A stretch of 64,000 bases of DNA from a virus: the IMG/VR virus record IMGVR_UViG_3300025816_000009, positions 1 through 64,000 of that record; one strand, given 5' to 3'. A program made the position numbers and the translations under genes. Of this stretch, positions 19,708 to 63,355 are shown in pieces; the first letter of the stretch is position 1, and each line of letters begins with the position of its first letter. A model generated the notes under the pieces. It was not told where the DNA came from. It made no database searches and was given only the letters and a program-made list of their open reading frames with translations.

Positions 19708-20151
19708 ATGCCGAGGAACTTTCGCAAACTCAACATCCGAAGGTATGTCGGAACTGTTCCCAATCTAACTTACGCATTTGCTAACTTCACAAATATGACT
19801 CCAAACGAATTGTTGAATAATTACAAGGATTATGCAAACGGTGATTCGATAGGCGGAACGGGAACGACACGAACTCCATTAGGAGCGACCGTACATATAG
19901 ATTCAAGCGCACCTAGATTATTGGGAGCATTCCCCGGCGGTGGGATGAATACGACAGGATATACAAATACGAGAATCGCCGCTGTCTCTCAAGTTCCACT
20001 ACAGACACCCCAATTGACAGTCGCCGGAACGATTCTTGCGACACCGACGAATCTAACTTTTTCACCATGGGGCGGAACAGGAACTTTGGATAATGCAGTT
20101 AATGGAAAAGCCACGCGATTGCTAAGGCCAATGTTTGTAAAAGTGGTCTGA
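19708..20151 (+). CDS. Hypothetical Thr/Gly-rich (virion?) protein
   Basis: 147-aa ORF in the head cluster. Confidence 0.55.
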   Translation: MPRNFRKLNIRRYVGTVPNLTYAFANFTNMTPNELLNNYKDYANGDSIGGTGTTRTPLGATVHIDSSAPRLLGAFPGGGMNTTGYTNTRIAAVSQVPLQTPQLTVAGTILATPTNLTFSPWGGTGTLDNAVNGKATRLLRPMFVKVV

Positions 20152-20209
20152 CGTATTCATAGCGGTTGCCGCGTCAGTCGTTCGCTGTACTGCCCTCACG
20201 CTTTCTAGT

Positions 20210-20245
20210 TATAAACCTTTTCATTGATAGATTGTGAAATTGATA
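20210..20245 (-). promoter_or_regulatory. ATTGA-repeat promoter cassette (leftward arm only)
   Basis: tataaaccttttcattgatagattgtgaaattgat. Confidence 0.7.
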
Positions 20246-20249
20246 TTGG

Positions 20250-20402
20250 GTTAGATTCCCCCCGTTCGTTATCACGAGTAGTTTCGGGGGGGATTCTTTT
20301 TCGATGTGTTTTAAGCATCAGAGTCCGGATTTGCACCGGCAGGTTCGCGACACCGGCCTGTCCTAAATTACCCGACCGAAGCCGGGCGCAGACGCCTCTC
20401 CC
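20250..20402 (-). ncRNA. Putative structured ncRNA A
   Basis: Starts at G 30 nt after TATA; GCCCGGC-UUCG-GUCGGGU hairpin; CCGG-UGCAAAU-CCGG T-loop-like hairpin; AGGCGUC/GAUGCUU closing stem; 3' C7/G6 hairpin. Confidence 0.55.
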
Positions 20403-20426
20403 AAACTGAACGGGTCGCTTTCTAGT

Positions 20427-20478
20427 TATAAAACTTTCTATTGAGATATTGTAATATTGATAAATAGAAACCTTAATA
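20427..20478. promoter_or_regulatory. Bidirectional ATTGA-repeat promoter cassette
   Basis: tataaaactttctattgagatattgtaatattgataaatagaaaccttaata. Confidence 0.75.
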
Positions 20479-20501
20479 AGCAAAGCACTACAGGAACAAA
20501 C

Positions 20502-20686: not shown

Positions 20687-21364
20687 ATGGCTAAATCAGT
20701 CAAAGAGTATCACGTCAAACCATGTGATGTTTCGGTTATTAGGCCATTTATTGAAAAGTGGCATTATTCTAAATCAATAAACGGGGTTCGTTCCTCGTAT
20801 TGTTTTGCTATGTGGGAAGGAGACGAATCACATTCGAGAGTTCTAGTCGGCGCTATGCTTTACGGAATGCCGGGCATGGCGAACGCTTGGAAGCCTTATG
20901 GTGAAAAAGAATCTGATGTTTTAGAATTACGCCGTCTCTGTTGCATTGACGATACGCCTCAAAATGCTGAATCATATTTTATTGGTAAGACTCTGAAATG
21001 GTTAAAAAATAATACGCTTGTCAAAAATATAGTCTCATATTCTGATATGAATCACGGTCATGAAGGAACGATATACAAAGCGTCGAACTTTCGACATGAT
21101 GGCATTACCTCTCCGGGACGAGTAATTATCAGATTGTCAGATGGGAAACAATATCACGACAAAACAATCCGAACAATGTACAATGGAAAATTAAAACCAT
21201 TCGCTCAAAAAATCAAGGAACAATTAGAAAACGGGGAAGCCGAATATAGAAATACAGTCGGGAAGAATATATTCGTATATGAACTCAAAAGAAAAAAACA
21301 TCACAACGTCATTCCGGTTTCTCCAAATGTTGAATCGTTAAGTTTCGAAGAATGGTTTAATTGA
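20687..21364 (+). CDS. Mom-like (GNAT-fold) DNA modification protein
   Basis: KWHYS, LELRRLC, NAESYFI, IVSYSD..HGHEGTIYKASNF match the Mom-family pattern. Confidence 0.7.
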   Translation: MAKSVKEYHVKPCDVSVIRPFIEKWHYSKSINGVRSSYCFAMWEGDESHSRVLVGAMLYGMPGMANAWKPYGEKESDVLELRRLCCIDDTPQNAESYFIGKTLKWLKNNTLVKNIVSYSDMNHGHEGTIYKASNFRHDGITSPGRVIIRLSDGKQYHDKTIRTMYNGKLKPFAQKIKEQLENGEAEYRNTVGKNIFVYELKRKKHHNVIPVSPNVESLSFEEWFN

Positions 21365-21408: not shown

Positions 21409-23007
21409 ATGGAACTAAGCGGAGCAATCAATATCAAAGACCAAGACAAGTTCGATTCCCTCGACCTTCCTTCCCAAGATGTTCAGATTGAGTATAGAAT
21501 AATCACACCTTTCGTCGTTAAGGCTTACGAAGATGACGAGAAGAAAAATGCAGATGTCATGATTAGAGGACCTGTATATGTGGGCGACAAGGATATGCTC
21601 GACAGGCATAATGAACTTGTTGACTATGAAGCGATGATGGCGGCTTGGGATAAGTATTCCAAGAATCCGGTTATCTTATACAACCACTCTAAGACATACG
21701 GAGTTATTGGAAAAATGACTAATGTCTCCATGGATGAATGGGAAGATTATGGAACTGTTCCAATCGGAACTGCTATGATTGACAGTGGTGAAAAAGACAT
21801 CACAAGAAAAATACAGAAGGGAATGCTCAAGGCTTTCTCAATCGGATTCATAGCAAAAGCGGCAGTCAAGATTTGTGAAGACAAGGAAGATGACTGTTAT
21901 ATCAGATTCACCGAGATTGATTGGGTCGAGACTTCGGTCGTCGATGTGCCGGCATCTCCGGGCGCATTATTTTCAGTTGAGAAAAAGTTCAGTTGGAAGA
22001 ATGGAAAATCACTTGGGGAGAAAGTGGGATGTGGATGTGGATGCAAAGGCGAGACTATTGAGTCCAATAGTTGCGAAGGAAAAGTTTCTGACAGCGCTGA
22101 AAACTTGTCCGAGAAAGAAATGGTCGGTGTTGATATTTACACAACAGAAGAGGAAGCATTAGCGAGAGCCGAAGAATTAGGTTGTTCCGGATTTCACACA
22201 ATGGAAAATGATGAGGGAGAAACCCTCTATATGCCGTGTAGTAGCCATGATGACTATGAATCTAGTACCGGAGATAGTGAGGAAGTGGAACTGTCAGCGA
22301 ACGATTTGGTTAAGAACCCCGACTCACACCCATTGGATTCAACGGAGTCAACAGATATGTCAACAACCGAAGAGAAATCCATCAGCGAGGACGCTGAAAC
22401 TATCGACGAGCCTATAGTAGAAGAGGCAGTTGTAGAGGAACAAACAGTAGAACTAACAGCAGATGAAACAATTATTGAAACTAAGGATGCAGAAGAAGCA
22501 GTCGAAGAGGAAGTAGTTGAAGAGGAAGTAGTTGACGAAGTAGTCGAGACTAAAGAAGCAGAGGCTACAGAAGAAGAATCAGCAACCCCATCCGGTGTTG
22601 AGGTTCTAATGGAAGTTGTTGGTGTTCTGAAAGAACTCAATGACAGGATGACCAAAATGGAATCCGCAGTTGACGCAACCGCTACATTAGAGAGCGAGAT
22701 TGCAGAACTAAAATCAGTCGTCGAAGCAAGAGACGCAACAATCTCTGAATTAACAGAAGCAAAGAGTGTTGCAGAACAAGAAGCAGAGATTGAATCAGAA
22801 GTTTCAAAGAGAGTCGCAAAGACTCTATCAGAAGTAGGTGTTGAAGTAGAAGCACCTATCGCAAGCAGAAAGTCAGCAATAGTTGACACCGTAGTTGCTG
22901 ACGTAAACAAAGCAAGTAGATTCGACCCACAGCCCAATGTAAGTCCCGGTATGAACGGCCTTGCTAAATGGCTAGAGGCTAACTTAGCGGGCAAGGGTAG
23001 AAACTGA
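21409..23007 (+). CDS. HK97-type prohead protease fused to acidic scaffold
   Basis: DRHNE, ILYNH, AFSIGF (catalytic Ser), ETSVVDVPA; acidic coiled-coil C-terminus. Confidence 0.85.
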   Translation: MELSGAINIKDQDKFDSLDLPSQDVQIEYRIITPFVVKAYEDDEKKNADVMIRGPVYVGDKDMLDRHNELVDYEAMMAAWDKYSKNPVILYNHSKTYGVIGKMTNVSMDEWEDYGTVPIGTAMIDSGEKDITRKIQKGMLKAFSIGFIAKAAVKICEDKEDDCYIRFTEIDWVETSVVDVPASPGALFSVEKKFSWKNGKSLGEKVGCGCGCKGETIESNSCEGKVSDSAENLSEKEMVGVDIYTTEEEALARAEELGCSGFHTMENDEGETLYMPCSSHDDYESSTGDSEEVELSANDLVKNPDSHPLDSTESTDMSTTEEKSISEDAETIDEPIVEEAVVEEQTVELTADETIIETKDAEEAVEEEVVEEEVVDEVVETKEAEATEEESATPSGVEVLMEVVGVLKELNDRMTKMESAVDATATLESEIAELKSVVEARDATISELTEAKSVAEQEAEIESEVSKRVAKTLSEVGVEVEAPIASRKSAIVDTVVADVNKASRFDPQPNVSPGMNGLAKWLEANLAGKGRN

Positions 23008-23015: not shown

Positions 23016-24092
23016 ATGGAAGTGAAAAAGATGAGTACAGAAGATATTGAGTTTAACGACGTTGTTGAAAGAGTGAAAGCGGCACTAGCGGGTGCGGGTA
23101 CAGGGACAGGGCAAGAAATGTTGCCGACTGAAACTGCTGACGAAATTATCGCTATAGTATATGAGAGGAACTTTATGCGTTCTCTATTCCCTGCTATGCC
23201 GATGAACCGAAGAATTATGAAAGTTCCAAAACTAACAGGTTCTATTGAGTTCCATGCTCAAACATTAGGAATGACAGAAGCGGGTACAGCATCCGCTGAA
23301 TCTCGTGCTACAACAGCAGAGATGACTTTAGAATTAAAGACCATGATAGCAAACGTACCAATCGGAAACTATCTAATCGCTTACGGTGTTGAAGGTCTTC
23401 TAACAGTTCTAAGAGATGACATCGCTTCTCGTCTAGCATTTAACGAAGAGTCATTGTTCATCAACGGTGATACAGTCATAACAAACGGCTATGTGAACAA
23501 CATCAATGGTCTATACAACGCAGGTACAAACCCTAGTGGTGTTGACGCAGATTCCAACGATTACCTAACATTATTCGATGGTCTAAGAAAGAGTGCAGGT
23601 AAGTCAGTTTCAGTTAGTGGAACTTTCGCACTATCTCACCTACGTTCAGCAATTAACCAACTTGGAGTTTACGCAGATAACCGCGCTGACCTTTCATTAA
23701 TTGTCCCTAGGAATCTCGAGGTCCAATTGCTCGGAATGACGGAACTTCAAACCGTCGATAAATATGGAGCAGGTGCAACAATTCTCTCCGGAGAACTTGG
23801 ACGCATTTACGGAATCCGTGTTTTCGCTACAGGTGTTATCGCTACCAACCTAAATTGGACAGGCGACTACGAAACAGGTACAGGAACAGTACAGGACAAG
23901 ACTGTTGCATTACTATTACAAAACCGTTCTCCTTTGATTGGAAACCCAACCGTTGCTGACAGAAGATTCAGTATCGGATTCCATGACGAACCACAGAAAG
24001 ACAGATTCTTGCTAGTACCAAAGCAAGACGTTGCTTTCGGTGTAAGATACACTGATGCAGTCTGTAAATTAACCGGAATAGCAACAGTTTGA
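23016..24092 (+). CDS. Major capsid protein (HK97 fold)
   Basis: LPTETADEII, EESLFINGD, FDGLRK, GRIYGIRV; follows the protease. Confidence 0.9.
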   Translation: MEVKKMSTEDIEFNDVVERVKAALAGAGTGTGQEMLPTETADEIIAIVYERNFMRSLFPAMPMNRRIMKVPKLTGSIEFHAQTLGMTEAGTASAESRATTAEMTLELKTMIANVPIGNYLIAYGVEGLLTVLRDDIASRLAFNEESLFINGDTVITNGYVNNINGLYNAGTNPSGVDADSNDYLTLFDGLRKSAGKSVSVSGTFALSHLRSAINQLGVYADNRADLSLIVPRNLEVQLLGMTELQTVDKYGAGATILSGELGRIYGIRVFATGVIATNLNWTGDYETGTGTVQDKTVALLLQNRSPLIGNPTVADRRFSIGFHDEPQKDRFLLVPKQDVAFGVRYTDAVCKLTGIATV

Positions 24093-25957: not shown

Positions 25958-26134
25958 GGGAATGACCTTAGAAGGCTGAACGGATTAGGACATATTTCGA
26001 ACTATGCACCGACGTTGGAATAACTAACTCCACACCTTAGTCTCATTTCACTCTCTTTCAAGCACGTTATGAGATACCTTCACATTCCCGCCGCCCGTTG
26101 TGGTCGCGGGGCGACATAGGAACTAAGTTCCTAC
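25958..26134 (-). ncRNA. Putative structured ncRNA B
   Basis: G at TATA+30; 5' hairpins GUAGGAAC-UUA-GUUCCUAU and GUCGC-CCC-GCGAC; long-range GGGAAUG/CAUUCCC and UCUCAU/AUGAGA pairings; no ORF. Confidence 0.55.
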
Positions 26135-26158
26135 AAACTAAGCGAAAGGCTCTCCCCT

Positions 26159-26210
26159 TATTAATGTTTCGGTGTATCAATGTCAGTGAACCTCAATGAA
26201 AAGGTTTATA
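26159..26210. promoter_or_regulatory. Bidirectional ATTGA-repeat promoter cassette (inverted)
   Basis: tattaatgtttcggtgtatcaatgtcagtgaacctcaatgaaaaggtttata. Confidence 0.75.
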
Positions 26211-26234
26211 ACTGAAAGCCTGCCTCATTAGTTT

Positions 26235-26345
26235 GTAGGAAGACGCGACACGACATCGACCCGGACGCGCCCTTTACTAGACGCTGTTGAAAAATACTCG
26301 CATGAAAGGGACATGGATGGCGCTATTCACGCTCCGTCTTCCTAC
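26235..26345 (+). ncRNA. Putative structured ncRNA C
   Basis: Begins exactly at TATA+30; perfect 11-bp terminal stem GUAGGAAGACG/CGUCUUCCUAC; internal CCCUUU/AAAGGG. Confidence 0.65.
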
Positions 26346-29207: not shown

Positions 29208-29310
29208 GGTTGTAGAAGCCGGGGGAACGATTGCGGGTATTACAGGAGAGGACTTTCGTCTTACACACACACCGTCTTCTGTCTTCTTACCCCGGATTTC
29301 TTCTACTTCC
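29208..29310 (-). ncRNA. Putative structured ncRNA D
   Basis: G at TATA+30; terminal stem GUAGAAG(AAAU)CCGGGG / CCCCGG-CUUCUAC; GAC-GAAA-GUC tetraloop; purine-rich interior. Confidence 0.6.
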
Positions 29311-29332: not shown

Positions 29333-29386
29333 TTAATAAAGGTTTTCATTGAGAGGTTAAGACATTGAGATAAGGAAACCTTTATA
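29333..29386. promoter_or_regulatory. Bidirectional ATTGA-repeat promoter cassette
   Basis: ttaataaaggttttcattgagaggttaagacattgagataaggaaacctttata. Confidence 0.75.
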
Positions 29387-29409
29387 GGTGGAAACCTCTA
29401 GGGTTAAAC

Positions 29410-37946: not shown

Positions 37947-38136
37947 GTAGGTGGGAGCGACCCATAGAACTCTCGACAGGTAATCAAGGCGGGTCATCGT
38001 CCCTTTTCCTCAACACCAAGCCGCACGACGACCGCATACACTGACGCCTTCGTGGTTCTCCTACTTTGTAAAAGTCCGCGGGGGGTTAGTCGCCGTAGGG
38101 TTCGTACCTTTCGCGGTGTCCGTCGCGTCCTCTTAC
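37947..38136 (-). ncRNA. Putative structured ncRNA E
   Basis: G at TATA+30; 5' GUAAGAGGACGCGAC pairs imperfectly with 3' GUCGCUCCCACCUAC; GC-rich; no ORF. Confidence 0.55.
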
Positions 38137-38196: not shown

Positions 38197-38404
38197 GTAA
38201 GAGAAGCGGGCAATTACAAACCTTCTTGGAATCTCTTCCTTTTCTCGGTTTCCTCATCCTGTCCCGTCTTCTCTTAGGTTGTAAGATTTCGCGTTGCTGT
38301 TGGTCCTAGCCTTTTAGTGATATTTTCCATCATTCTATTCAAGTTTTTACACTCTGTTTCTTTCACTACCCTAACTTTCACGAATCCGCGCCGCGTCCTC
38401 TTAC
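38197..38404 (-). ncRNA. Putative structured ncRNA F
   Basis: G at TATA+30; terminal stem GUAAGAGGACGCGG / CCCGCUUCUCUUAC; A/G-rich interior. Confidence 0.6.
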
Positions 38405-38428
38405 AAACTAAACGAGTCGTCTTTTGGT

Positions 38429-38480
38429 TATAAACCTTTTTATTGAGAGTTCTTTACATTGATAGTTCGAAACACTTATA
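38429..38480. promoter_or_regulatory. Bidirectional ATTGA-repeat promoter cassette
   Basis: tataaacctttttattgagagttctttacattgatagttcgaaacacttata. Confidence 0.75.
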
Positions 38481-38503
38481 AGGGGGAATGCCTAGGACAG
38501 AAC

Positions 38504-46657: not shown

Positions 46658-46913
46658 GTAAGGGCAACAGTATGCCTCTGTTCAGATTCGCCGGTTTGGC
46701 GGCCGCATATTCCACACAATCCCGGTAAGGATTTCGTTCCCAACCACGAGAACTCAAATGTTTTATAGATAGGCTACTGACCACCATTCTCTCACGTTAG
46801 TTCATTTTATAATCAAGTCTAACACCAAGCAATTCCTTTCGGACCTCTTAGAGTGCGTTCCCCCTATCCTGTTGCCCGGGCGTCAAAGCGCCCAAGAGAA
46901 GCCACCTTCCCTC
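46658..46913 (-). ncRNA. Putative structured ncRNA G
   Basis: G at TATA+30; GGGCG-CUUUGA-CGCCC hairpin; perfect 9-bp long-range GGGCAACAG/CUGUUGCCC; UCC-GAAA-GGA. Confidence 0.6.
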
Positions 46914-46937
46914 AAACCTAACGAACAGCCTTTGGCT

Positions 46938-46990
46938 TATAAAGGTTTCGTTTTATCAATGTTAATAGTTATCAATAGAAAGATTTATTA
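46938..46990. promoter_or_regulatory. Bidirectional ATTGA-repeat promoter cassette (inverted)
   Basis: tataaaggtttcgttttatcaatgttaatagttatcaatagaaagatttatta. Confidence 0.75.
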
Positions 46991-47013: not shown

Positions 47014-47235
47014 GAGTGAACGGCGCTTATCCGAGCAAAGTTCGCAAACCCGGTGGCTACGACCGATTCGAACTTGATTCGTCTTAGCCTAGGAAGTTGG
47101 GGGATATGAGAGAACATATTCTCCGTTAGAAGATTGACTGTATTGCTTGGAAGCAGAACACTTTGGGGCGAACTTGGTCTGTTCTATCTTCTATCATATA
47201 GGAGCAGGGATGCTTCTAAGCCACCGGGAAATCGC
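47014..47235 (+). ncRNA. Putative structured ncRNA H
   Basis: G at TATA+30; perfect 10-bp CCCGGUGGCU/AGCCACCGGG; nested UAGAAGAU/AUCUUCUA and AGAACA/UGUUCU. Confidence 0.6.
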
Positions 47236-50353: not shown

Positions 50354-50475
50354 TGCGGTCAAGAGCCAACACCCGCCCCCCGTCGGGGGTGGAGCAAGCC
50401 AACTCTGATTTACGGGTTTACCCTACAGGTGGAAGGCCGGCCGGTGAAGTCGCCTATTCCGGCTGACTCTATCGC
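50354..50475 (-). ncRNA. Putative structured ncRNA I
   Basis: G at TATA+29; GCG..GAGUCAGC / GUUGGCUC..CGC closing stem; GGG-UAAA-CCC and CCCCC-GAC-GGGGG hairpins. Confidence 0.55.
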
Positions 50476-50533: not shown

Positions 50534-50616
50534 GAGGCGGGGGAGCAACCCCCCATTTAGAATCAAGCCCGCAACCATGCGTGGGAATCGAACCTCTCGT
50601 AGCCCTCTTCTTCCTC
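50534..50616 (-). ncRNA. Putative structured ncRNA J (tRNA-sized, T-loop motif)
   Basis: G at TATA+30; GAGG/CCUC ends; GG-UUCGAUU-CC T-loop; CGCA-UGGU-UGCG; 3' G/C hairpin. Confidence 0.5.
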
Positions 50617-50640
50617 AATCTAAGCGAACAGCCTTTGAGT

Positions 50641-50692
50641 TATAAATCTTTTTATTGATAACTCAAGACATTGATAGAACAAAACCTTTATA
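50641..50692. promoter_or_regulatory. Bidirectional ATTGA-repeat promoter cassette
   Basis: tataaatctttttattgataactcaagacattgatagaacaaaacctttata. Confidence 0.75.
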
Positions 50693-50715
50693 TGCTGGAA
50701 GCCGTAGGACAGAAC

Positions 50716-52998: not shown

Positions 52999-52999
52999 C

Positions 53000-53234
53000 G
53001 GGCATGAAGTTTCAAACGGCACAAGAAACTGCTTTTTATGAGTCCGCCTCTCTCTTCCTTGTGTTGTTCCATTATTCCAATCATGCCCTGTGAGTAAGAT
53101 AGAAAGGCCGCTCCCAAATCGTCCGTTCGTTCGGGAACGCCTTTCGGCGAGAGAAGATTTCTGTCCTTCCAAGACCCCTGCGGTGGCGGTTCTGCCTCGT
53201 GCTTGAAGGGCGGTGTCGGAGTGGCTTTCTTCTC
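53000..53234 (-). ncRNA. Putative structured ncRNA K (two domains)
   Basis: G at TATA+30; AGAAAG-CC/GGCCUUUCU closing stem; CGCC-GAAA-GGCG; second domain closed by GGGCAUGA/UCAUGCCC. Confidence 0.6.
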
Positions 53235-53258
53235 TGTACTGTCGTAGGCACTTCCGGC

Positions 53259-53310
53259 TATAAAGGTTTCGGTTTATCAATGTCTCATTCTATCAATAAA
53301 AAGACTTATA
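53259..53310. promoter_or_regulatory. Bidirectional ATTGA-repeat promoter cassette (inverted)
   Basis: tataaaggtttcggtttatcaatgtctcattctatcaataaaaagacttata. Confidence 0.75.
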
Positions 53311-53334
53311 AACAGACACCTATAGGGTCAAACA

Positions 53335-53534
53335 GCGAAAGTGGGTACGCCACCCACACAACAGAGGTTGTAAAATATTCATGTTGGGCAGTTCGCCGTC
53401 AGAAGACTGACGTTAAACAACGAGGAAGTACACGGCAGACCCCGGGCGAGGGGAAGTGGCAGAGGGTAGGGGCTGTCGCAACACGGATTACACGGATTCG
53501 TGATAGTAGGTAGGGGCTATCACACACGACTTTC
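53335..53534 (+). ncRNA. Putative structured ncRNA L
   Basis: G at TATA+30; GAAAGU/ACUUUC ends; hairpins GUGGGU/ACCCAC, CGUCAG-AAGA-CUGACG, GUGAUAG/CUAUCAC. Confidence 0.6.
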
Positions 53535-55579: not shown

Positions 55580-56767
55580 ATGAGCAAATCTCAAACTGCA
55601 TTACCCAAGATAGCAAAGAAACGCCTCGCACCATATATTGAGCGCGGCATAGTGAACGGCATTTTTACCGACGGAAAACCCGTCGCTGAAATGTATCAGA
55701 GAAAAGCGAACGACCCTTCGTTGTCGCAAACCATCTCTGAACTCGGCGGAGCATCATCCGAACCGGCGCAACAATTCATAACCGAAACTGTATTAGTGGA
55801 TTTATCCGCAATCCTTCGTCAGAAGAGATACACCGGACACCTAGATATATGGGAAGTAAATCACCGAATCGTTGGTGTGGCTTCCGGAAATCCTCGCCCT
55901 GTATGTTTCATCATGGGACAGGCAGTAGTTGAAGATGACGATGTTGAATCAGAACCTTCATTATTCAGACTTTCACTTTGGGACGCAGACGCTTCTCTAG
56001 CAGATGACGTTGAAAGAGATGGAAAATATTCTCTAGCAATAACCTGCAAGAATCTTGACGCAGATATTCTTGACCTTCGACCAATGCAAGGTCTTGCTTC
56101 ATTCGCTCAAGAAGAATACGAACATGGCGACCGTCAAGAATTACTCAAAGGATTATTCGACATAACAGATATTGCGGACTTGGAAGACAATCTTTCAGTC
56201 GGAAACAACGACTTCCGTCTTATCGAAGCATCAGTATCTTACGCCGGAGTTCAAAACTCTCGTGCCGGAAATCAATTCGGAAAAATGCTACTGAAAGACG
56301 ACTCAACTATGACCATGGATGCAATTGAATCCGGTGAGAATCTACTTCTCAACTGTATGTGTTCAACTGCAATCGCTACACGATTCGGAAAATACTCAAA
56401 AATATTGGCTCTAGTATCTGTAAAGTCATCCAATGACTACGGATTATCAGCAAACATGGAATGTGCAATCGGTCTAGTGGTTGTTTCTCCACCCGAACCC
56501 GAGACACCGAAAGGTGGCGATGACGACGATGATGATGCGGCGTCATATTTCAAAACGAATGTCCCGACAATAACTGACGATGATGACGACGAAGAAGATG
56601 TGGCTTCTGAAACACCAACTGAAACTACTGCAATAGTTGAAGATTCCACGGCAGAGGAAACAGAAGAAGTTGTCGAGACACCTACTCCAAAGAAGGCTGA
56701 AAAAGCCGCTGAAAAAGCCGCTGAACCCGCTACAGATGGCGACGATGATTGGGACGATTGGGACTGA
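55580..56767 (+). CDS. RPA/SSB-like OB-fold protein with acidic tail
   Basis: RLSLWD, LLKDDS OB-fold-like strands; acidic DDDWDDWD C-terminus; within the replication block. Confidence 0.55.
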   Translation: MSKSQTALPKIAKKRLAPYIERGIVNGIFTDGKPVAEMYQRKANDPSLSQTISELGGASSEPAQQFITETVLVDLSAILRQKRYTGHLDIWEVNHRIVGVASGNPRPVCFIMGQAVVEDDDVESEPSLFRLSLWDADASLADDVERDGKYSLAITCKNLDADILDLRPMQGLASFAQEEYEHGDRQELLKGLFDITDIADLEDNLSVGNNDFRLIEASVSYAGVQNSRAGNQFGKMLLKDDSTMTMDAIESGENLLLNCMCSTAIATRFGKYSKILALVSVKSSNDYGLSANMECAIGLVVVSPPEPETPKGGDDDDDDAASYFKTNVPTITDDDDDEEDVASETPTETTAIVEDSTAEETEEVVETPTPKKAEKAAEKAAEPATDGDDDWDDWD

Positions 56768-56805
56768 TTGGAGTCGCTTAAATAGGTGGTAAATGAGGGA
56801 TTGAT

Positions 56806-57696
56806 ATGGCTAAGAAGAAGAAGACTGATTATTCAGCATTAATAGCAACGGCAGATACGGGAACATCAATGGCGGAGAGCAAACCACTTCGTCATATGAA
56901 ATTACAGGCATTTCCGGGCGGTGGAAAATCACACTTCTCTCTGTCCTTTTTCGACCATGAAATGAAAACTGCCGGCTTGAAACCGGAAGAAGGATTGATG
57001 ACTATTATTGATTGTGATTTAGAAGGCCAAAGAGATTTGGTTGCTCGAGATGACATACTATCTCCGGAACTTCGCCCACGACTTTACAGAAAAGTTTGCC
57101 GAACACCCGAAGAAGTAAACCAAATGGTTCTAGCATTTATCGACTTGCACCGACAACACGCCGAAGAACATCCGGATGGCGTCCGTGTAATGTGTATGGA
57201 AAATGAAGGCGCGTATTATCTCGCTTGTCGTGATTATTACTCGATTGAAGTTCATGGAAAATCAGAGGCAGAACAATTACTATCTCGACAGGCTCAAGCA
57301 ATTTCAGAAGGGAAGAAAACTCTCCCTATGTTTGCCGAAGGTCAAATGCACTCTTACAAAGTTATTAACAAAATGTTCTTTCAACCATACGAGAGATTGA
57401 AGGTTGGTGCGGAGATTTACAAATATCATTTCATCTCCACCGTTCTTTTGAAATCTTACACCGAAGGATATGGAACTGCAAATGAGAATCGTGTAGTCGC
57501 CGCGGCCGGACGTGCTGATTTGACAGACCCTTTGTTTGATTGGATTATAGAATTGACTCAACAACAGAGGACAGTGAAGGGCGAATTAAAGACGCGCCAC
57601 GTATCTGAAATCAGAAAATCAAGAACTTGTAAACCGTTCAGAATAGAGAACCCAACACAAGAGAAGTTTTGGAATGCCGTAAAAAAGCAATCCTAA
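56806..57696 (+). CDS. P-loop ATPase (RecA/Sak4-like recombination protein)
   Basis: AFPGGGKS, IIDCDLEG; sits between SSB and nuclease. Confidence 0.55.
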   Translation: MAKKKKTDYSALIATADTGTSMAESKPLRHMKLQAFPGGGKSHFSLSFFDHEMKTAGLKPEEGLMTIIDCDLEGQRDLVARDDILSPELRPRLYRKVCRTPEEVNQMVLAFIDLHRQHAEEHPDGVRVMCMENEGAYYLACRDYYSIEVHGKSEAEQLLSRQAQAISEGKKTLPMFAEGQMHSYKVINKMFFQPYERLKVGAEIYKYHFISTVLLKSYTEGYGTANENRVVAAAGRADLTDPLFDWIIELTQQQRTVKGELKTRHVSEIRKSRTCKPFRIENPTQEKFWNAVKKQS

Positions 57697-57756
57697 ACAT
57701 CTCCGTTAGCGAGTTCTTCAAATAGGTGGCTAACAGCGAAAGGAATGTGAACAAAC

Positions 57757-58956
57757 ATGAAAGTCCCGTACTTATCCGCATCCCGTTTGAAGACTGCACA
57801 AGATTGTCAACTATCTTACAAACTTCGTTATGACCCACCAAATGAAGAAGCAGTTCAAGTAAAATGGGCTAACGAACATCGCGACAATCTCGGACCTGCT
57901 CGTCTTGGCGGTAATATTCACAACGCTCTCGAAGAGTGGAGAAGACCAAATCCAAAGACAGGAAAAGTCAGACGCCCACGTCTTGACAAACTGCTAGAAC
58001 TTTACGACGCTGAATGCGCCAAAGCGGAAATTGATTTCGACCTCTATGAAGATGGAGTGAAAATGTTGACACGTTGGTTTCAGAAGAGAGGAACTGCACC
58101 TGTCAAAGTTCTTCACGTCGAGCAACAATTCGGTTCTCATAGAGCGCCGTACATTTTGTCAAATGGAGTTCCCGTCTTTGGGTTCATTGATTTGACGCTT
58201 GAGATTGACGAGAACACAATCGAACTTGTTGATTACAAAACTCAACGAGCGCCAATCAAACAAGAGGAAGCAGATTCAAATGTACAGGCGGGAATGTATC
58301 TTTCAGTCGCTAAGGAATTATGGCCGGATAAGGATATTATATTCACTTTCGATTTGACTCGTTATGGAACTGTTTCAACTCGTTGGTCAGATGAAAAGAT
58401 TGACACTTTCAAAGCATTCTTGAAAACCAAATGGGAATGGATTAATTCAATTGAAGAACCAAAGGCAACAATCGGACCTGCCTGTAAATGGTGTGCGTTT
58501 ACTGAAATCTGTCCGAAGGCTCAAAAACTTGTTCAGATGGGAGCGTGGGATATTGTTGTCGGAGCAACACCCGTTGATGATGACCCCGATGAAATGTTAG
58601 ACCAACTTCAAGGAATCAAGGCGGCTCAAGCAATTCTCACAAAGAAAAAGAAAGCAATCGAAGACCACATCAAGAATGAGTGGTTCGATAGACACGCCGC
58701 CGTAGGAGAAAATACTAGGATTACAGAGAAGTATGCGGTGAAGTGGGAAGATAGGAAAAACAAGAAGTATCTTCCACACGAAGTTCAGCGATTAGTACCG
58801 GCCGGAGTTTACGGACAAATGTCAACTTTGTCAAATACAAATGTTGAACGGTTGTTGCCTGTTTTACCCGAGGATGTGCAAAAAGCCATCAGAGACACCG
58901 CAATATCTAAACCATTCAAAGCATTGACTATTCGTAAGAGACAAGATGCCAACTGA
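57757..58956 (+). CDS. PD-(D/E)XK Cas4/RecB-like exonuclease
   Basis: LSASRL...C, GxxIH, GFID...LVDYKT, QxxxY, CKWCAFTEIC. Confidence 0.85.
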   Translation: MKVPYLSASRLKTAQDCQLSYKLRYDPPNEEAVQVKWANEHRDNLGPARLGGNIHNALEEWRRPNPKTGKVRRPRLDKLLELYDAECAKAEIDFDLYEDGVKMLTRWFQKRGTAPVKVLHVEQQFGSHRAPYILSNGVPVFGFIDLTLEIDENTIELVDYKTQRAPIKQEEADSNVQAGMYLSVAKELWPDKDIIFTFDLTRYGTVSTRWSDEKIDTFKAFLKTKWEWINSIEEPKATIGPACKWCAFTEICPKAQKLVQMGAWDIVVGATPVDDDPDEMLDQLQGIKAAQAILTKKKKAIEDHIKNEWFDRHAAVGENTRITEKYAVKWEDRKNKKYLPHEVQRLVPAGVYGQMSTLSNTNVERLLPVLPEDVQKAIRDTAISKPFKALTIRKRQDAN

Positions 58957-59792: not shown

Positions 59793-60593
59793 ATGACCTT
59801 AACGCCGAATAGCAACGTGAGCAGAACGGGAATCGTTCGTGCCGAATCATCATCTCTGTCAACCGCACTTCGTCGAGCAGTTCTCGACAATCCTTCAAAT
59901 CCTGTGAAAGCATTATTCACCGAAGAAGGATTGAGTATTTGGACTCACGATATTGCTAAGACAGTTCAACTGATAATGACCAATGCAACAATTGGCGGCT
60001 TGAAGGTAAAGAATCCTGTCATCATGTTGCTCGACCCGGAATCAATGGCTTCACTTTTAGATACTAAGTTCCCCGGTGAAATGGTCAAACTTGAATGCAA
60101 ACCAAACTCTCCAATTACCGTTTCATCTCGAAGCGGTGGAAATGTTGTTTATCATCCGGCTGATGAAGATGATTGTTTCGTCGTTCCCGACCATTGGATT
60201 ATGCCGAAAGATTCTGACGGTTGGTTTACAATTCCAATGAAGAATGGAGAAAAATGTACAACAAGAGTCGTACTTTCGAAACAAGAAATGCAAAACGGAA
60301 TAGTTGACATGACTGTCGCCGGCGCTCCTTACGTTTCATTCGACTTCAATCAGAATGGTTCGACCTGCGAATCCGGACATTGGGGTTCAAAGACCAATCG
60401 TTCTATGACGCCGATTAATGCAACAGTCGAAGGACCTGCAATATCACTAAACTTCACCGAGAATCTTGGTGGAATCCTCGGTCGGCTTGACGGTGAGAAT
60501 TACGTTGTTCAGAAACATTCAGCGACTCCGTTCACAATTATTGAAAGTGGTTCGACTGTTGTCGTTGCTACAGAAGCGCAACGTGAGGGATGA
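59793..60593 (+). CDS. PCNA-like sliding clamp
   Basis: 266 aa, two-domain alpha/beta pattern (ALFTEEGLSIWTHD...), close to primase and RFC. Confidence 0.55.
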   Translation: MTLTPNSNVSRTGIVRAESSSLSTALRRAVLDNPSNPVKALFTEEGLSIWTHDIAKTVQLIMTNATIGGLKVKNPVIMLLDPESMASLLDTKFPGEMVKLECKPNSPITVSSRSGGNVVYHPADEDDCFVVPDHWIMPKDSDGWFTIPMKNGEKCTTRVVLSKQEMQNGIVDMTVAGAPYVSFDFNQNGSTCESGHWGSKTNRSMTPINATVEGPAISLNFTENLGGILGRLDGENYVVQKHSATPFTIIESGSTVVVATEAQREG

Positions 60594-60838
60594 TAATGTA
60601 CGACCCGAATCATGGATTATATCAACGAGTGAAAGCAGAATCAGCGCTTGGTATTGACGAGGAAACTCGCGACCAAATTATGACTGCCGTCAAACTTGAC
60701 TTACTTCTTGCTCATGCGGGAATCACTGACGATAAAATCGAATTGGCTTATGACGCCGCATTGAAAAATCAATTGGCTGATGTCAGAGATGCTTTCGAAG
60801 CCCTCGTCGGGAAGGACGAGGATTTGGATGAGATTTGA
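60590..60838 (+). CDS. Hypothetical protein
   Basis: ATGA overlap. Confidence 0.55.
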   Translation: MIMYDPNHGLYQRVKAESALGIDEETRDQIMTAVKLDLLLAHAGITDDKIELAYDAALKNQLADVRDAFEALVGKDEDLDEI

Positions 60839-62003
60839 TAATGAGAAAATGGAATTACTTCTCGAACATCTCGGGTTCAGACATTTCCCAAGGGCGATAG
60901 GAAATCCAAGACAAGAGTTCGTTTACTCAACCGATGAAGTTTATCCGAAACTTGTTCAGTGGGATGGTAATTCATCTTGCTTCATTTCAACCGGCGGTTA
61001 TGACGCGCTCAAGTGGGAAGTTGGAAATAAACAAAGTCCGGGTAAAATAATTCACGAGATGACTTTCTTTGACTTCGACCACGAGACGAAACCGGAAAAC
61101 GCATTTGCTGACGCTCAAAGATTATCTCAATTCTTGACGAAGATGAACATCGCACATTGGGTTCAGTATTCCGGAAGCAAGGGTTATCATTTATTCATAA
61201 TTCACAAACCTACGAAGTTCAAGTTCGACCATCGCGACGGTTCAGCGGATGCGTTGAAGAATCTTCTAAACCAAACTCAAACTCATCTCGGAAAAACACT
61301 TGGACTGAATACTTTGGATGAACAAACTACCGGCGACCCAAAACGCTTGTGTAGGATTCCATTCACTCGTCATGTAAATCGCTTGGGTAAATTATCCGGC
61401 AGATATGCTGTTCCTGTTGACACGGAAAAACTTGACACAATTTCACACGAGGATATTGAAAAAATGTCCTATCGACCTCGATACGCTTTGCCTAACATCA
61501 TCGGGAGAAGACTAACTTTGCGAGATTTCATTGTCGAACTTGGTGTTGAACTTCACCAACCCGAAACTCAACTTCGTGATATTATCAATTCCGATTTCGA
61601 TTACAATCCATCAACGACGGCATTTCTAAAATCGCTTGAATACAGATGTCCGGGTGTCGTCAATGAATTGAAGCGTAGGAATCCCCCACACAACGCAAGG
61701 GTGTTTAGTGCGCTGTTCGGAAAAACATTAGGCTATGATGGGGGGAGATTCGAAGATATTTGGATGGAAATGGGGAAGACAATTGGTTATGTGGACTTAC
61801 ACAATAAAGAGCATAGACTCTATCAAATGTCAACAATATTCGATGACCCGAAATGGCGGTCATTCCCGAACTGTACAACACTCAAAGCCAAGGGCTGTTG
61901 CATTGGTGAAACCTGTCCGAGATGGAAGACTTTTCAAGGTGGGGCAACTAACCAAGTTCGTACAATAAACAGGAAGTGGAGAAAGAAAAATGGTAGCAAA
62001 TAA
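60828..62003 (+). CDS. Archaeo-eukaryotic primase, PriS-PriL fusion
   Basis: FFDFD, YSGSKGYH, RLCRIP; C-terminal CPGV...HNAR...PNCxxL...C..C FeS domain. Confidence 0.85.
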   Translation: MRFDNEKMELLLEHLGFRHFPRAIGNPRQEFVYSTDEVYPKLVQWDGNSSCFISTGGYDALKWEVGNKQSPGKIIHEMTFFDFDHETKPENAFADAQRLSQFLTKMNIAHWVQYSGSKGYHLFIIHKPTKFKFDHRDGSADALKNLLNQTQTHLGKTLGLNTLDEQTTGDPKRLCRIPFTRHVNRLGKLSGRYAVPVDTEKLDTISHEDIEKMSYRPRYALPNIIGRRLTLRDFIVELGVELHQPETQLRDIINSDFDYNPSTTAFLKSLEYRCPGVVNELKRRNPPHNARVFSALFGKTLGYDGGRFEDIWMEMGKTIGYVDLHNKEHRLYQMSTIFDDPKWRSFPNCTTLKAKGCCIGETCPRWKTFQGGATNQVRTINRKWRKKNGSK

Positions 62004-62871
62004 GACAGCGAAATATGACAAGATAATCGAAAACGAAGAATCGCTTGCGGCGTTCTTTGACGGCGAACCGAACCTTGGTCAACTTTTGGGATTGTACAGA
62101 TACTCGAAAAACTTGATTGAAGAAATGGCACTTTCGGGAACGAGACAGGATATGCCGGACCAAGATGAGTTCCTATTGACTTCAATAGACCCATGGAAGT
62201 TAGAGAAAAAACTTGGGGAAATGATTCTGAACGAAATGGTTAGCCGACATCGAAAAGTTGACCATCGAGAACATTGGACGATGTGCGCGTATCTCGGAGA
62301 TTTAGGATTCGAAGTTGTTCATCTCAATACAGGAGAAGGAGATGTATCAAGTCGAAAAGTCAGTATCGAGAGAAAAGAGGACGACCTCGTTCCGTCTCTG
62401 TTCGATGGCAGAAGACTAAGACAACTAAGCGCCATGAGAGAAACTGCTGAATATTCATTTTTGATAGTTTCGAAATCATATACGGAAATCAAAAAGGGAT
62501 TACAAGAGCGACAAGTTTCAGATAAAATCTTCACGTCGTTCATAGCAAGTTTGGCCGCTGTTGGCTATCCGCCGATGTTTATTGATGACAGATACGACGC
62601 CGCTCAAGTGATGCACCAATTAATCGGGAAGATTGAAGATGACAATCATCGACTCTATGTTCCCCGACCCAAAGGCGCTAACCCAACTGATTTCCGAAAT
62701 GCTATGGTCGAGGCTTTGCCGAAGGTTGGATTCAAAACACGCCGAAAATTAGTAGCCAAGTTTCCGAGCATAGCAAAATTAGTAGCCGCGAGTGTTGATG
62801 ATATACAAGCGATTGAAGGAATTGGTCAGAAGACTGCCGAAAAGATTTGGCATTGTCTTCATGATGAATAA
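61990..62871 (+). CDS. XPF/ERCC4-family nuclease with tandem HhH
   Basis: VDHRE, GD, IERKxxDL...DGR..Q, LPKVG, IEGIGQKTA. Confidence 0.85.
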   Translation: MVANKTAKYDKIIENEESLAAFFDGEPNLGQLLGLYRYSKNLIEEMALSGTRQDMPDQDEFLLTSIDPWKLEKKLGEMILNEMVSRHRKVDHREHWTMCAYLGDLGFEVVHLNTGEGDVSSRKVSIERKEDDLVPSLFDGRRLRQLSAMRETAEYSFLIVSKSYTEIKKGLQERQVSDKIFTSFIASLAAVGYPPMFIDDRYDAAQVMHQLIGKIEDDNHRLYVPRPKGANPTDFRNAMVEALPKVGFKTRRKLVAKFPSIAKLVAASVDDIQAIEGIGQKTAEKIWHCLHDE

Positions 62872-63355
62872 CACCGGGGCTTTCAACTCTTCCTACTCAA
62901 TGAGGCATCCTTCTTCCCTAGTGTTTTTATGAGAACAGTGCCTAAGTTTCGAGTCGGATGTTCTCAAGTTTTTCTTGTTTGGGTATGCTGTATGACCACT
63001 TATTGCCTCGGCTTCTTTATCCGCTAGTGGTTCAAAGGGTTGGGAATGGGATAGCCCGTCTGCTTAGGTGCGTGAGAATTACCTCGTTGCCCCCTATCCA
63101 TCGCTACTTTCTTGCCTAATTTATCGTGGTCTGTTCATTACTATTCCATAGTGTTGTTTCCCTTCAAGGGGTTCTACCCAAGAAGTCTCTCTTCCGCTTC
63201 AATCACTCGCTGTTTTTCGCTTTAGCCGCATATGCCTATGTCTTTGTGATTTCGAAGAGAGGACAAGTCCTCGCCGCCGAGCCTTCCTCGGAAGCATCTT
63301 CGCTCATTCCCGGGAGTCCGCCTTTCGACGTCTCCCATGAGAGGCAACCTCTCAC
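62872..63355 (-). ncRNA. Putative large structured ncRNA M (~480 nt, two domains)
   Basis: G at TATA+30; 14-bp bulged stem GUGAGAGGUUGCCUC/GAGGUAAUUCUCAC; many hairpins including CGUC-GAAA-GGCG; second domain with ACCACU/AGUGGU and UGAGAACA/UGUUCUCA. Confidence 0.6.

What the first reader, a model, noticed from the sequence alone, without database searches (positions are those of the whole stretch)
20150..63355. Repertoire of ~13-14 co-regulated structured non-coding RNA genes in an archaeal virus
Seen in sequence: ORF-free intergenic blocks at 20250-20402(-), 25958-26134(-), 26235-26345(+), 29208-29310(-), 37947-38136(-), 38197-38404(-), 46658-46913(-), 47014-47235(+), 50354-50475(-), 50534-50616(-), 53000-53234(-), 53335-53534(+) and 62872-63355(-). 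Each lies behind an arm of the same promoter cassette. Where that cassette drives proteins (12939, 20502, 29410, 38504, 46575, 50716), the ATG sits about 29 nt after the TATA start. In the non-coding cases a G sits at +30 (+29 once), and in most of them that G opens a stem. Most units are closed by long-range stems of about 6-14 bp and contain GNRA, UUCG or T-loop hairpins, yet their interiors are largely unrelated. Established: archaeal TSSs lie at about this distance from TATA, and terminal stems are typical of stable RNAs. Inference: about 2.6 kb of dedicated, probably early, stable RNAs. They could be decoys or sponges against host defence or RNA-binding proteins, antisense/guide RNAs, or ribozymes. 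I do not recognise any of them as a known family.
Basis: partly seen in the sequence, partly recalled or inferred. Interest (0 to 1): 0.93.

Follow-up and report, generated by a model that had tools for sequence, protein, structure and literature searches.

The report
Promoter-linked structured RNA genes, archaeal-type virus
An 81-kb marine tailed virus with archaeal-style promoters carries about 13 short non-coding blocks, each behind its own copy of one promoter cassette; several show evolutionary signs of folded RNA, but their expression and function are still unproven.

Summary
A bidirectional BRE/TATA cassette with two ATTGAK sites occurs 11 times in the window, against 0.05 expected. All 13 blocks (2,544 nt) lie behind an arm. 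They have no usable ORF, and their orthologues differ by frame-breaking indels.

Evidence for folding is mixed.
- **Stability:** modest overall. Mean z is -1.87 against -0.49 for coding controls, p=0.001.
- **Covariation:** strong in three domains of the 53000-53534 pair. One is a hairpin with an invariant (A/U)GGGUAGGGG loop: 56 of 56 stem cells pair and 6 of 7 pairs covary.

Units are swapped, lost or replaced between near-identical strains.

Not supported:
- discrete 3' ends, since there are no oligo-T runs;
- early timing;
- T-loops as a general feature, found in 1 of 13 units plus one extra arm stretch;
- expression, since RNA-run contigs were too thin to judge.

No Rfam, tRNA or C/D-box match was found. 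My reading is new, modular, virus-encoded structured RNAs of unknown role. The scan held only unfollowed first-reader notes on this same genome.

The parts
20250..20402 (-). U1, non-coding unit behind type-A arm 20437(-)
   Evidence: Arm pattern ends at 20402. The orthologue in L012 (91.5% identical) has a 1-nt indel and a compensated 3' hairpin. z = -0.71.
20130..20199 (-). U0, short non-coding stretch behind single arm 20220(-) (ACAG in place of ACATG); runs antisense into gene 19708-20151
   Evidence: Orthologues in L011, L012, L043 and L044 are 94-100% identical. z = -0.9.
25958..26134 (-). U2, behind type-A arm 26169(-)
   Evidence: Orthologues carry a 54-nt and a 5-nt insertion, and show 3 double and 4 single pair-keeping changes. 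z = -1.92.
26235..26345 (+). U3, behind type-A arm 26200(+); 11-bp stem joins its first and last bases
   Evidence: In L010 the closing stem changes A-U to U-A, and 26 nt of the interior are deleted.
29208..29310 (-). U4, behind type-A arm 29345(-); optional cargo
   Evidence: z = -2.77. Relative G003 lacks both the arm and U4, and the downstream operon keeps its own CTAAATAAC promoter and GTG start.
37947..38136 (-). U5, behind type-A arm 38171(-)
   Evidence: The orthologue in L008/L110 is 82% identical, with conserved 5' and 3' domains and a replaced interior. z = -0.32.
38197..38404 (-). U6, behind type-A arm 38439(-); purine fraction 0.66
   Evidence: z = -4.01. In strain L110 it is replaced by a different ~95-nt unit on the other strand.
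46658..46913 (-). U7, behind arm 46948(-), a one-base variant of type A
   Evidence: z = -2.02. No orthologue found.
47014..47235 (+). U8, behind arm 46979(+) (ACAG type); the next gene (47285) has its own TATA at about 47255
   Evidence: z = -4.30. No orthologue found.
50354..50475 (-). U9, behind single arm 50509(-)
   Evidence: z = -0.80. It lies in a ~750-nt stretch absent from G001.
50534..50616 (-). U10, behind type-A arm 50651(-); the only unit with a GGUUCGAUUCC T-loop-like motif
   Evidence: The L007 orthologue is 88% identical, with a G-C to C-G swap in the 3' hairpin. z = +0.13.
53000..53234 (-). U11, behind arm 53269(-); two separately closed domains
   Evidence: z = -2.66.
53167..53217 (-). 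Domain D_b core (U11 nt 18-68)
   Evidence: 98% identical in G001 and 90% in G002/L101, which are ~70% identical elsewhere. Of 19 consensus pairs, 5 change on both sides, and there are invariant G-U pairs on this strand.
53000..53094 (-). Domain D_c (U11 3' domain), conserved core GAGAGAGGCGGACUCAUAAAAAGCAG
   Evidence: Also present in G003, in a different intergenic site. 5 of 18 pairs change on both sides, and the outer closing stems have unrelated sequences in the two genomes.
53335..53534 (+). U12, behind arm 53300(+); the next gene (53549) has its own TATA at about 53535
   Evidence: z = -2.09.
53456..53479 (+). D_a hairpin 1: 7-bp stem, loop AGGGUAGGGG
53500..53523 (+). D_a hairpin 2: 7-bp stem, loop UAGGUAGGGG
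62872..63355 (-). U13, 484-nt unit behind type-A arm 63390(-)
   Evidence: Purine fraction 0.61. z = -1.16. No orthologue found.
20426..20479 (.). Two-armed cassette: TATA/BRE, two ATTGAK sites, BRE/TATA
26158..26211 (.). Two-armed cassette between two convergent operon ends; both arms are non-coding
29334..29387 (.). Two-armed cassette
38428..38481 (.). Two-armed cassette. A single-armed copy lies at 38160-38196.
46937..46990 (.). Two-armed cassette. A single-armed copy at 46598-46637 drives the protein gene starting at 46575.
50640..50693 (.). Two-armed cassette. A single-armed copy lies at 50498-50533.
53258..53311 (.). Two-armed cassette; both arms are non-coding
63379..63418 (.). Cassette with one arm (-). 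The + side uses the other (GGTGG) promoter class.

Best explanation
The blocks are genes for non-coding RNAs. Each is transcribed from its own arm of a shared, factor-regulated archaeal-type promoter cassette.

The RNAs are built from independently folding domains, each closed by its own stem. In about half of the units the first transcribed bases (GURRGARG) are locked into a helix, either with the 3' end or in a 5' hairpin. I infer that this protects the ends.

Domains and whole promoter+RNA modules are exchanged, lost and replaced between closely related viruses, as accessory cargo is. A few domains are kept with covarying stems and invariant loops, such as (A/U)GGGUAGGGG. That is the pattern expected of specific recognition sites.

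I infer that they act in trans as protein-binding RNAs (decoys or scaffolds) in host takeover or counter-defence, rather than as antisense guides or leaders of the neighbouring genes.

Shown: the promoter arms, the non-coding nature, the strand-biased composition, covariation in three domains, and modular turnover.
Inferred: transcription itself, the 5' end at the G, the 3' ends, stability, and the function.
For: PROMOTER ARMS. 11 cassettes against 0.05 expected. 8 type-A arms against 0.01 expected, each ending at a unit start. Fixed spacing matches the leaderless ATG of 6 of 6 protein arms. Sigma-70-like sites are at chance: 35 against 34.5, and 25 against 32.7.

NON-CODING.. No translated similarity to any of about 1.43 Mb of related loci beyond the nucleotide-level orthologues.

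STRAND. Purine fraction is >=0.51 on the predicted strand in 13 of 13 units. That includes the 10 minus-strand units, which sit in a genome whose + strand is purine-rich. There are G-U pairs in covarying stems on that strand: 7 of 56 cells in D_a, and invariant G-U pairs in D_b.

STRUCTURE. Mean z is -1.87 against -0.49 in controls, p=0.001.
- D_a: 22 distinct GGTAGGGG sites were found in 1.32 Mb. 9 have 7-8-bp flanking stems and 13 have 0-2 bp. On those 9, 100% of cells pair, 6 of 7 pairs change on both sides, 0 of 500 shuffles reach the covariation score, and slid controls pair 27-53%.
- D_b: 5 of 19 pairs covary.
- D_c: 5 of 18 pairs covary.
- D_a sits on the minus arm in G001, L101 and L060 and on the plus arm here and in L007. 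It is sense to its arm every time.

CARGO BEHAVIOUR..

NOT LEADERS. The genes after U4, U8 and U12 keep their own promoters.
Against: - No direct evidence of transcription. The four RNA runs gave only depth 2-7 contigs scattered over the genes.
- No oligo-T or terminator-like signal at the claimed 3' ends.
- One RNA-library contig (38041-38317) runs across a cassette from U6 into U5. That fits read-through or DNA carry-over rather than discrete units.
- Folding is modest: 6 of 13 units have z above -1.8, and the opposite strand folds about as well.
- With the window's own MFE as the structure, orthologue substitutions keep 46 pairs (26 double, 20 single) and break 46. Slid controls give 8-17 double changes.
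- The 9 D_a hairpins were picked for having stems, so '100% paired' is partly by construction.
- D_a's sense orientation rests on only two independent arrangements.
- Type-A arms also precede protein genes: 70453(+) in this genome, and G001 6019(+) before the protease.
- 5 of 13 units have no orthologue.
- The function is pure inference.
Confidence: 0.55

Rival explanations
1. The blocks are cis-acting operon-boundary elements. The backward-firing arms and the structured, pyrimidine-rich (+ strand) blocks insulate neighbouring operons. Convergent transcription and + strand T-runs stop read-through from the upstream module, or the antisense RNA covers and stabilises the 3' end of the upstream mRNA. 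In this view the RNA sequence matters little.
For: - The minus-strand units lie at operon boundaries in a genome that is otherwise almost all + strand. Most of them (U0, U2, U5, U11, U13) run towards the 3' end of a + strand gene, and U3 runs towards the end of the one minus-strand operon.
- Cassette 26158-26211 sits between two convergent operon ends and has no protein output.
- In G001 and G002 the D_b domain, read on the + strand, is an 11-bp-closed hairpin followed by T6-T7.
- The conserved D_c core holds a T5 run on the + strand about 36 nt after the stop of the upstream gene.
- Position is conserved while content varies.
Against: - Arms and units are dispensable. G003 lacks U4 and its arm, and G001 lacks the U9/U10 complex.
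- Plus-strand units (U8, U12) point the same way as the genes.
- G-U pairs and invariant loops in D_a and D_b point to selection on the arm-sense strand and on specific sequence, not on mere transcription.
- Terminator-like sites are at chance: 25 against 18.8+-4.9, and 23 against 19.0+-4.1.
Confidence: 0.22
2. The conserved hairpins act at the DNA level. They would be single-strand hairpin or protein-binding sites, for example replication-origin or primosome sites next to the replication module. The promoters would only open the DNA.
For: - The D_a hairpins (conserved loop, variable stem) lie just upstream of the replication/recombination module: helicase, exonuclease, primase-polymerase, ERCC4 nuclease.
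- A conserved loop with a covarying stem is also the pattern of rolling-circle origin hairpins (recalled from memory, not tested).
- The purine-rich transcript strand would favour R-loops (inference).
Against: - 13 unrelated blocks are spread over 43 kb, which is too many for origins.
- 7 of 56 stem cells are G-U(T) pairs.
- D_a flips strand together with its promoter arm.
- No iterons or AT-rich unwinding element were seen beside it.
Confidence: 0.08
3. The transcripts are by-products of bidirectional promoters. The backward arm fires only because archaeal TATA/BRE cassettes are nearly symmetric, and the blocks are non-functional spacer.
For: - Units turn over quickly. Only near-identical strains keep most of them.
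- z-scores are weak for U1, U5, U9 and U10.
- No expression data are available.
Against: - The type-A arms carry their own conserved 8-nt element at a fixed distance. It is shared with relatives that are ~70% identical.
- Single-armed copies exist that drive only a non-coding block: 20220, 38171, 50509.
- Covariation in three domains.
- Short modules are 97-98% identical between genomes that are ~70% identical elsewhere.
- GC is raised in 12 of 13 units.
Confidence: 0.1
4. The blocks encode small proteins that were missed because of unusual start codons or a different genetic code.
For: Some units are stop-free in one sense frame over their whole length: U1 (51 codons), U4 (34), U10 (27), U11 (78).
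Against: - No start codon at or after the predicted start site. The longest sense ATG-ORF is 0-43 codons.
- At least one frame-breaking indel in the alignments of 7 of the 8 units with orthologues.
- Compensatory, not third-position, substitutions.
- No tblastx similarity in distant relatives.
- All neighbouring genes read normally under table 11.
Confidence: 0.03

Closest known systems
Virus-encoded decoy RNAs with a terminal stem (adenovirus VA RNA, EBV EBERs); comparison recalled from memory, not tested
   Same: Short, structured, promoter-driven viral non-coding RNAs. In several units (U3, U4, U6, U9, U10) the 5' and 3' ends pair. Sequence conservation is low.
   Different: The host and polymerase are archaeal-type: BRE/TATA arms, not Pol III. 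There are about 13 unrelated RNAs per genome rather than one or two. Domains are exchanged between sites. No binding partner is known.
Phage phi29 pRNA; recalled from memory
   Same: A tailed dsDNA virus encodes a structured RNA under its own promoter, and the structure is better conserved than the sequence.
   Different: pRNA is a single gene next to the packaging end and forms a ring through loop-loop pairing. Here there are many units spread across all modules. No complement of the D_a loop exists in the genome: one search finds GGTAGGGG only in U12, on both strands.
Phage RNA counter-defence elements (pseudo-ToxI antitoxin mimics, RNA anti-CRISPRs); recalled from memory
   Same: Non-coding viral RNAs in hypervariable accessory positions with strong promoters. 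Strain-to-strain turnover resembles that of anti-defence cargo.
   Different: No tandem repeats of the ToxI kind. No CRISPR-repeat-like arrays. The host and its defence systems are unknown.
Bacterial Y-RNA-like YrlA (terminal stem plus tRNA-like module); recalled from memory
   Same: U10 combines a closing stem with a GGUUCGAUUCC T-loop-like motif that is conserved in L007.
   Different: Only 1 of the 13 units plus one extra arm stretch has the motif. ARAGORN finds no tRNA-like fold. No Rfam hit. No Ro/TROVE protein appeared among the proteins scanned (not all genes were scanned).
Archaeal BRE/TATA promoters with leaderless mRNAs
   Same: The 12-mer AAAS-N-TTTATAA, and an ATG whose A is the 23rd base after it in 6 of 6 protein arms.
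   Different: The back-to-back packaging with two ATTGAK sites, and a second fixed element (TYAGWTTG) that is specific to the non-coding arms, are not general promoter features that I know of.

Membership tests
Any Rfam 15 family (4227 models) | Covariance-model score at or above the family's gathering score | tested here: not met
   0 matches at gathering score. At E<=5 there were only two chance-level hits (mir-4875 at 23 bits against a threshold of 90; SAM_alpha at 20 against 36), and neither falls within a unit; the mir-4875 hit overlaps the 20426-20479 cassette.
tRNA / tmRNA / tRNA-like | Cloverleaf fold with anticodon arm; T-loop GTTCRANYC | tested here: not met
   ARAGORN found 0 genes in the window. 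The T-loop motif occurs in 1 of the 13 units plus one extra arm stretch (U10).
Archaeal C/D-box sRNA | C box RUGAUGA near the 5' end and D box CUGA near the 3' end | tested here: not met
   C box found in none of the 13 units or the extra arm stretch.
Type III antitoxin-like RNA (ToxI type) | Tandem direct repeats of about 30-40 nt next to an endoribonuclease toxin gene | tested here: not met
   The only tandem repeat inside a unit is ACACGGATT x2 in U12. Toxin adjacency was not examined.
RNA anti-CRISPR / CRISPR repeat mimic | Sequence and fold of the host's CRISPR repeat | not testable with these tools
   The host is unknown. The only hints are co-binned MAG contigs. No repeat-spacer arrays in the window.
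Cis-regulatory 5' leader / riboswitch | Continuous with the downstream gene, which has no promoter of its own | tested here: not met
   The genes after U8, U12 and U4 have their own TATA at the leaderless distance. Most type-A units have no downstream gene on their strand.
Archaeal-type promoter | Purine-rich BRE directly upstream of an 8-nt TATA box; start about 25-30 nt downstream | tested here: met
   21 arms carry AAAS-N-TTWATWR. The ATG sits at a fixed offset in 6 of 6 protein arms. Bacterial sigma-70 patterns are at chance. Transcription itself was not tested.
Structured non-coding RNA (generic criterion) | Base pairs maintained by compensatory substitutions in homologues | tested here: inconclusive
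   Met for three domains of U11 and U12. One to three compensatory changes each in U1, U2, U3, U5 and U10. On single-sequence MFE structures, 46 pairs are kept and 46 broken. No orthologues for U6, U7, U8, U9 or U13.
Small protein gene | Conserved open frame with a start codon | tested here: not met

The most novel reading that the evidence does not exclude
A marine archaeal virus carries a recombining 'RNA accessory genome': a dozen or more promoter-plus-structured-RNA modules. Their domains are traded between sites and between co-circulating viruses, and they act as RNA-based host-takeover or counter-defence effectors. Each would be recognised through invariant loops such as (A/U)GGGUAGGGG. 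This would be the RNA counterpart of the protein anti-defence islands of phages, a layer of archaeal virus-host conflict not described so far.
Probability: 0.22. Interest if true: 0.9.

Novelty: new variant of a known kind. Interest (0 to 1): 0.68.

Why it matters
Non-coding RNAs of archaeal viruses are almost unexplored. My four literature searches listed no paper that describes such a repertoire. I saw only the search listings and abstract starts, and I read no paper.

If these units are expressed, about 3% of this 81-kb genome is spent on about 13 different structured RNAs with their own regulated promoters. That is far more than the one or two RNAs typical of known viral systems.

It would also supply three things:
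- new RNA folds with covariation support;
- a compact, well-defined archaeal bidirectional promoter with a candidate operator (two ATTGAK sites);
- a clear case of modular RNA-domain exchange between viruses.

The hairpin with the invariant G-rich loop is a concrete handle for finding a binding partner in an uncultured virus-host system.

Tried and rejected
KNOWN RNA FAMILIES. Rfam at gathering score and at E<=5 gave nothing usable. ARAGORN found no tRNA. There are no C/D boxes and only one T-loop. There are no tandem repeats in units except a 9-nt doublet in U12.

EXPRESSION. One run search found 4 RNA runs from 2 studies, each holding 7-11% of the words of 44000-53999. Laid on 37900-57899, they gave 7-30 contig pieces per run at depth about 2-7, scattered over genes. 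The bin 46571-47237 (U7/U8) had no cover in any run. Contigs cannot show level, strand or ends, so this is neither for nor against expression.

TARGETS AND HOST.
- Trans-antisense targets in the virus: the longest perfect matches are 10-15 nt against a shuffle maximum of 14-16. Only U5 (15 nt, at 37588) just exceeds its shuffles. Rejected as a general mechanism.
- Loop complement CCCCTACCCT in two MAGs that hold relatives' contigs: 11 hits against 7 for the reversed control in one MAG, and 0 in the other. This is chance level.
- Covariance model R1 of domain D_a found only the five known viruses in 1.1 Mb of related loci. It found nothing in 41 genomes around one MAG. That empty answer shows nothing.
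- An IMG/VR pattern scan for the D_a hairpin found only the 4 known contigs.

MORE ORTHOLOGUES. I tried a cassette pattern, the capsid protein in IMG/VR and in metagenomes, the 662-aa protein and the 193-aa protein. Close relatives are few, and distant ones lack the units.

VIRUS AND HOST IDENTITY.
- The capsid protein has no match in GenBank phage records.
- The Atlas gave only viral clusters.
- MAG titles were 'Methanobacteriota archaeon' (2 contigs) and 'Legionellales bacterium' (1 contig). This is a weak hint only.
- Pfam on seven small ORFs (six cassette-first genes and the 77-aa ORF 49981-50214) gave nothing useful.

OTHER CHECKS.
- A shared internal motif among units: none beyond CGAAAGG in 4 units.
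- A first, mis-spaced arm pattern gave 0 hits. I corrected it.
- Earlier notes of this scan were first-reader notes on the same stretch, none followed up.
- Supplementary files of papers were not consulted.

Full report
WHAT THE WINDOW IS. The window is bases 1-64000 of an 81,411-bp IMG/VR virus record rated complete. It is a head-tailed virus with these genes:
- terminase 13988-15487, portal 16494-19169, prohead protease 21409-23007, HK97-type capsid 23016-24092, tape measure 30717-33092;
- a replication/recombination module: XPD-like helicase 50879-52714, PD-(D/E)XK exonuclease 57757-58956, primase-polymerase 60780-62003, ERCC4+HhH nuclease 61990-62871.

Nearly all genes are on the + strand. 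An archaeal host is inferred, not shown. The evidence is BRE/TATA boxes at a fixed distance from leaderless ATGs, sigma-70-like sites at chance, and relatives' contigs binned in a 'Methanobacteriota archaeon' MAG, but also in a Legionellales MAG. The capsid protein has no match in GenBank phage records.

The two-site core ATTGAK-N10-ATTGAK occurs 11 times, against 0.05 expected. It is flanked by BRE+TATA on one side or on both sides, which gives 21 arms in the window.

In 6 of 6 protein arms the A of ATG is the 23rd base after the 12-mer. In non-coding arms a G sits one base later, and once at the same base.

The arms fall into two classes.
Arm 46948 is a near variant.
- Type B reads GGACAG-A/T-AC and then either ATG (protein) or AG (non-coding: 20220, 46979, 53269, 53300).

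A third promoter class, TT(C/A)ATAA(A/C)GGTGG, precedes internal genes, including those after U8 and U12. It is conserved before the 662-aa gene in most of the 11 distant relatives shown.

THE BLOCKS ARE NON-CODING. Sense ATG-ORFs are 0-43 codons long. The longer mechanical ORFs begin inside cassettes, upstream of the predicted start. The alignments of 7 of the 8 units with orthologues show at least one indel that is not a multiple of three. tblastx finds nothing beyond nucleotide-level orthologues in about 1.43 Mb of related loci.

STRAND AND COMPOSITION. Purine fraction is >=0.51 on the predicted strand in 13 of 13 units (0.571 overall; coding sense is 0.548). For the ten minus-strand units this reverses the local + strand bias. 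GC is 0.43-0.62, mean 0.52, and is above the window's ~0.44 in 12 of 13 units.

FOLDING. z-scores are:
- U1 -0.71, U2 -1.92, U3 -1.71, U4 -2.77, U5 -0.32, U6 -4.01, U7 -2.02;
- U8 -4.30, U9 -0.80, U10 +0.13, U11 -2.66, U12 -2.09, U13 -1.16.

The mean is -1.87, against -0.49 (sd 1.10) for 40 coding segments; p=0.001. The opposite strands fold about as well. The first 7 nt are paired (>=6 of 7) in 7 of 13 units, against 3.2 expected. GNRA/UNCG hairpins are about twofold enriched on the sense strand. These are supportive but modest numbers.

RELATIVES. I collected loci through a cassette pattern, the capsid protein and two other proteins, and fetched whole records G001-G005. Only strains with ~98% identical capsid proteins keep U0-U5 and U10. 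Viruses that are ~65-78% identical in DNA (G001, G002, G003) have the same cassette and type-A element, but other RNA content.

Units behave as cargo.
- G003 lacks U4 and its arm, and the downstream operon keeps its own promoter.
- G001 lacks the ~750-nt U9/U10 complex.
- In L110, U6 is replaced by a different ~95-nt unit on the other strand.
- Short modules are 97-98% identical between genomes that are ~70% identical elsewhere.

COVARIATION. Pairwise alignments show pair-keeping double changes in U1, U2, U3, U5 and U10 (1-3 each), and more in U11 (6) and U12 (8). Those counts come from a consensus fold, which drops broken pairs. With the window's own MFE as the structure, the tally is 26 double and 20 single kept against 46 broken. 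Slid controls give 8-17 doubles. So the global signal is about twofold, not more.

Three domains are convincing.

D_a. Of 22 distinct GGTAGGGG sites in 1.32 Mb, 9 are flanked by 7-8-bp stems and 13 by 0-2 bp. The 9 lie in five viruses, always upstream of the 662-aa gene.
- On them, 56 of 56 cells pair.
- 6 of 7 pairs change on both sides.
- 7 cells are G-U.
- 0 of 500 shuffles reach the covariation score.
- Slid partners pair only 27-53%.
The nine were chosen for having stems, so the percentage paired is partly by construction. The bimodal stem lengths and the pair diversity are not.

D_a sits behind the plus arm here and in L007, and behind the minus arm in G001, L101 and L060. It is sense to its arm each time. 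That amounts to only two independent arrangements.

D_b (U11 nt 18-68). 19 pairs, of which 5 change on both sides, and there are invariant G-U pairs on the sense strand. In G001 and G002 it lies about 200 nt behind a type-A arm with a variant TATA (ATTGATAA), which I read.

D_c (U11 3' domain). It is shared with a G003 unit at another site. 5 of 18 pairs change on both sides, and the closing stems are unrelated in sequence.

WHAT IS NOT SHOWN.
- Transcription, start sites and ends. RNA-run contigs were too thin to judge. One contig bridges U6, the cassette and U5.
- 3' signals. No oligo-T runs mark the 3' ends.
- 'Early' timing. The cassette also heads the structural modules, so this has no support.
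- Known families. No Rfam family, tRNA, C/D box or ToxI-like repeat fits.
- Targets. No antisense target in the virus exceeds chance.

READING. The best-supported account is a set of independent, modular, structured RNA genes under a shared regulated promoter, with specific recognition loops and cargo-like turnover. I think a trans-acting, protein-binding role in takeover or counter-defence is the most likely function, but this is inference.

The main rival is a cis role at operon boundaries (insulation, termination, or 3'-end protection). It fits the convergent placement and the + strand T-runs inside D_b and D_c. It does not explain dispensability, sense-strand G-U pairs or invariant loops. 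DNA-level hairpins, promoter noise and hidden small proteins are less likely.

PRIOR WORK. Literature searches (listings and abstract starts only, no paper read) showed nothing describing this. Earlier notes of this scan were unfollowed first-reader notes on the same genome.

Noticed in passing
236-3127(+) and 3132-3806(+): A 963-aa ORF and its neighbour are built largely of 9-nt GGN-CCN-ACN repeats, which is collagen-like Gly-X-Y. This is probably a fibre protein.
   Followed up: no
20687-21364(+): A Mom-family protein (PF25680, E 9e-33) lies directly after a cassette-driven 54-aa zinc-ribbon-like ORF. G001 lacks both and has a 330-nt type-A unit there instead.
   Followed up: partly
10801, 12349, 39545, 47255, 53535, 56778, 59765, 63428 (+): A third promoter or translation-start motif, TT(C/A)ATAA(A/C)GGTGG, followed by an ATG about 30 nt after its start. 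It is conserved before the 662-aa gene in most of the 11 distant relatives shown.
   Followed up: partly
26158-26211: A cassette placed between two convergent operon ends, with non-coding units on both arms and no protein output. The position is conserved in G003 with different RNA content.
   Followed up: partly
L110:3300-3520 (IMGVR_UViG_3300020438_000248): In a strain whose neighbouring 193-aa protein is 90% identical, U6 is replaced by an unrelated ~95-nt unit on the opposite strand, followed by a second, single-armed cassette.
   Followed up: yes
53167-53217(-); L035:9066-9116; L060:3630-3671: Modules of about 40-50 nt are 97-98% identical between genomes that are otherwise ~70% identical. 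This points to recent exchange or to very strong sequence constraint.
   Followed up: partly
G001 29040-29130 (L035:9040-9130), + strand: Read on the + strand, domain D_b in G001 and G002 is an 11-bp-closed hairpin followed by T6-T7. It resembles an intrinsic terminator for the upstream gene.
   Followed up: partly
70453(+), outside the window (genome coordinate): A further cassette arm, with a type-A-like element (CTCGTTAGTACCG), precedes a 722-aa gene with a ~45-nt leader. So type-A arms are not strictly non-coding.
   Followed up: no
28628-29158(-): The first gene of the only multi-gene minus-strand operon appears to start with GTG about 30 nt after its own CTAAATAAC box. This is conserved in G003.
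   Followed up: partly
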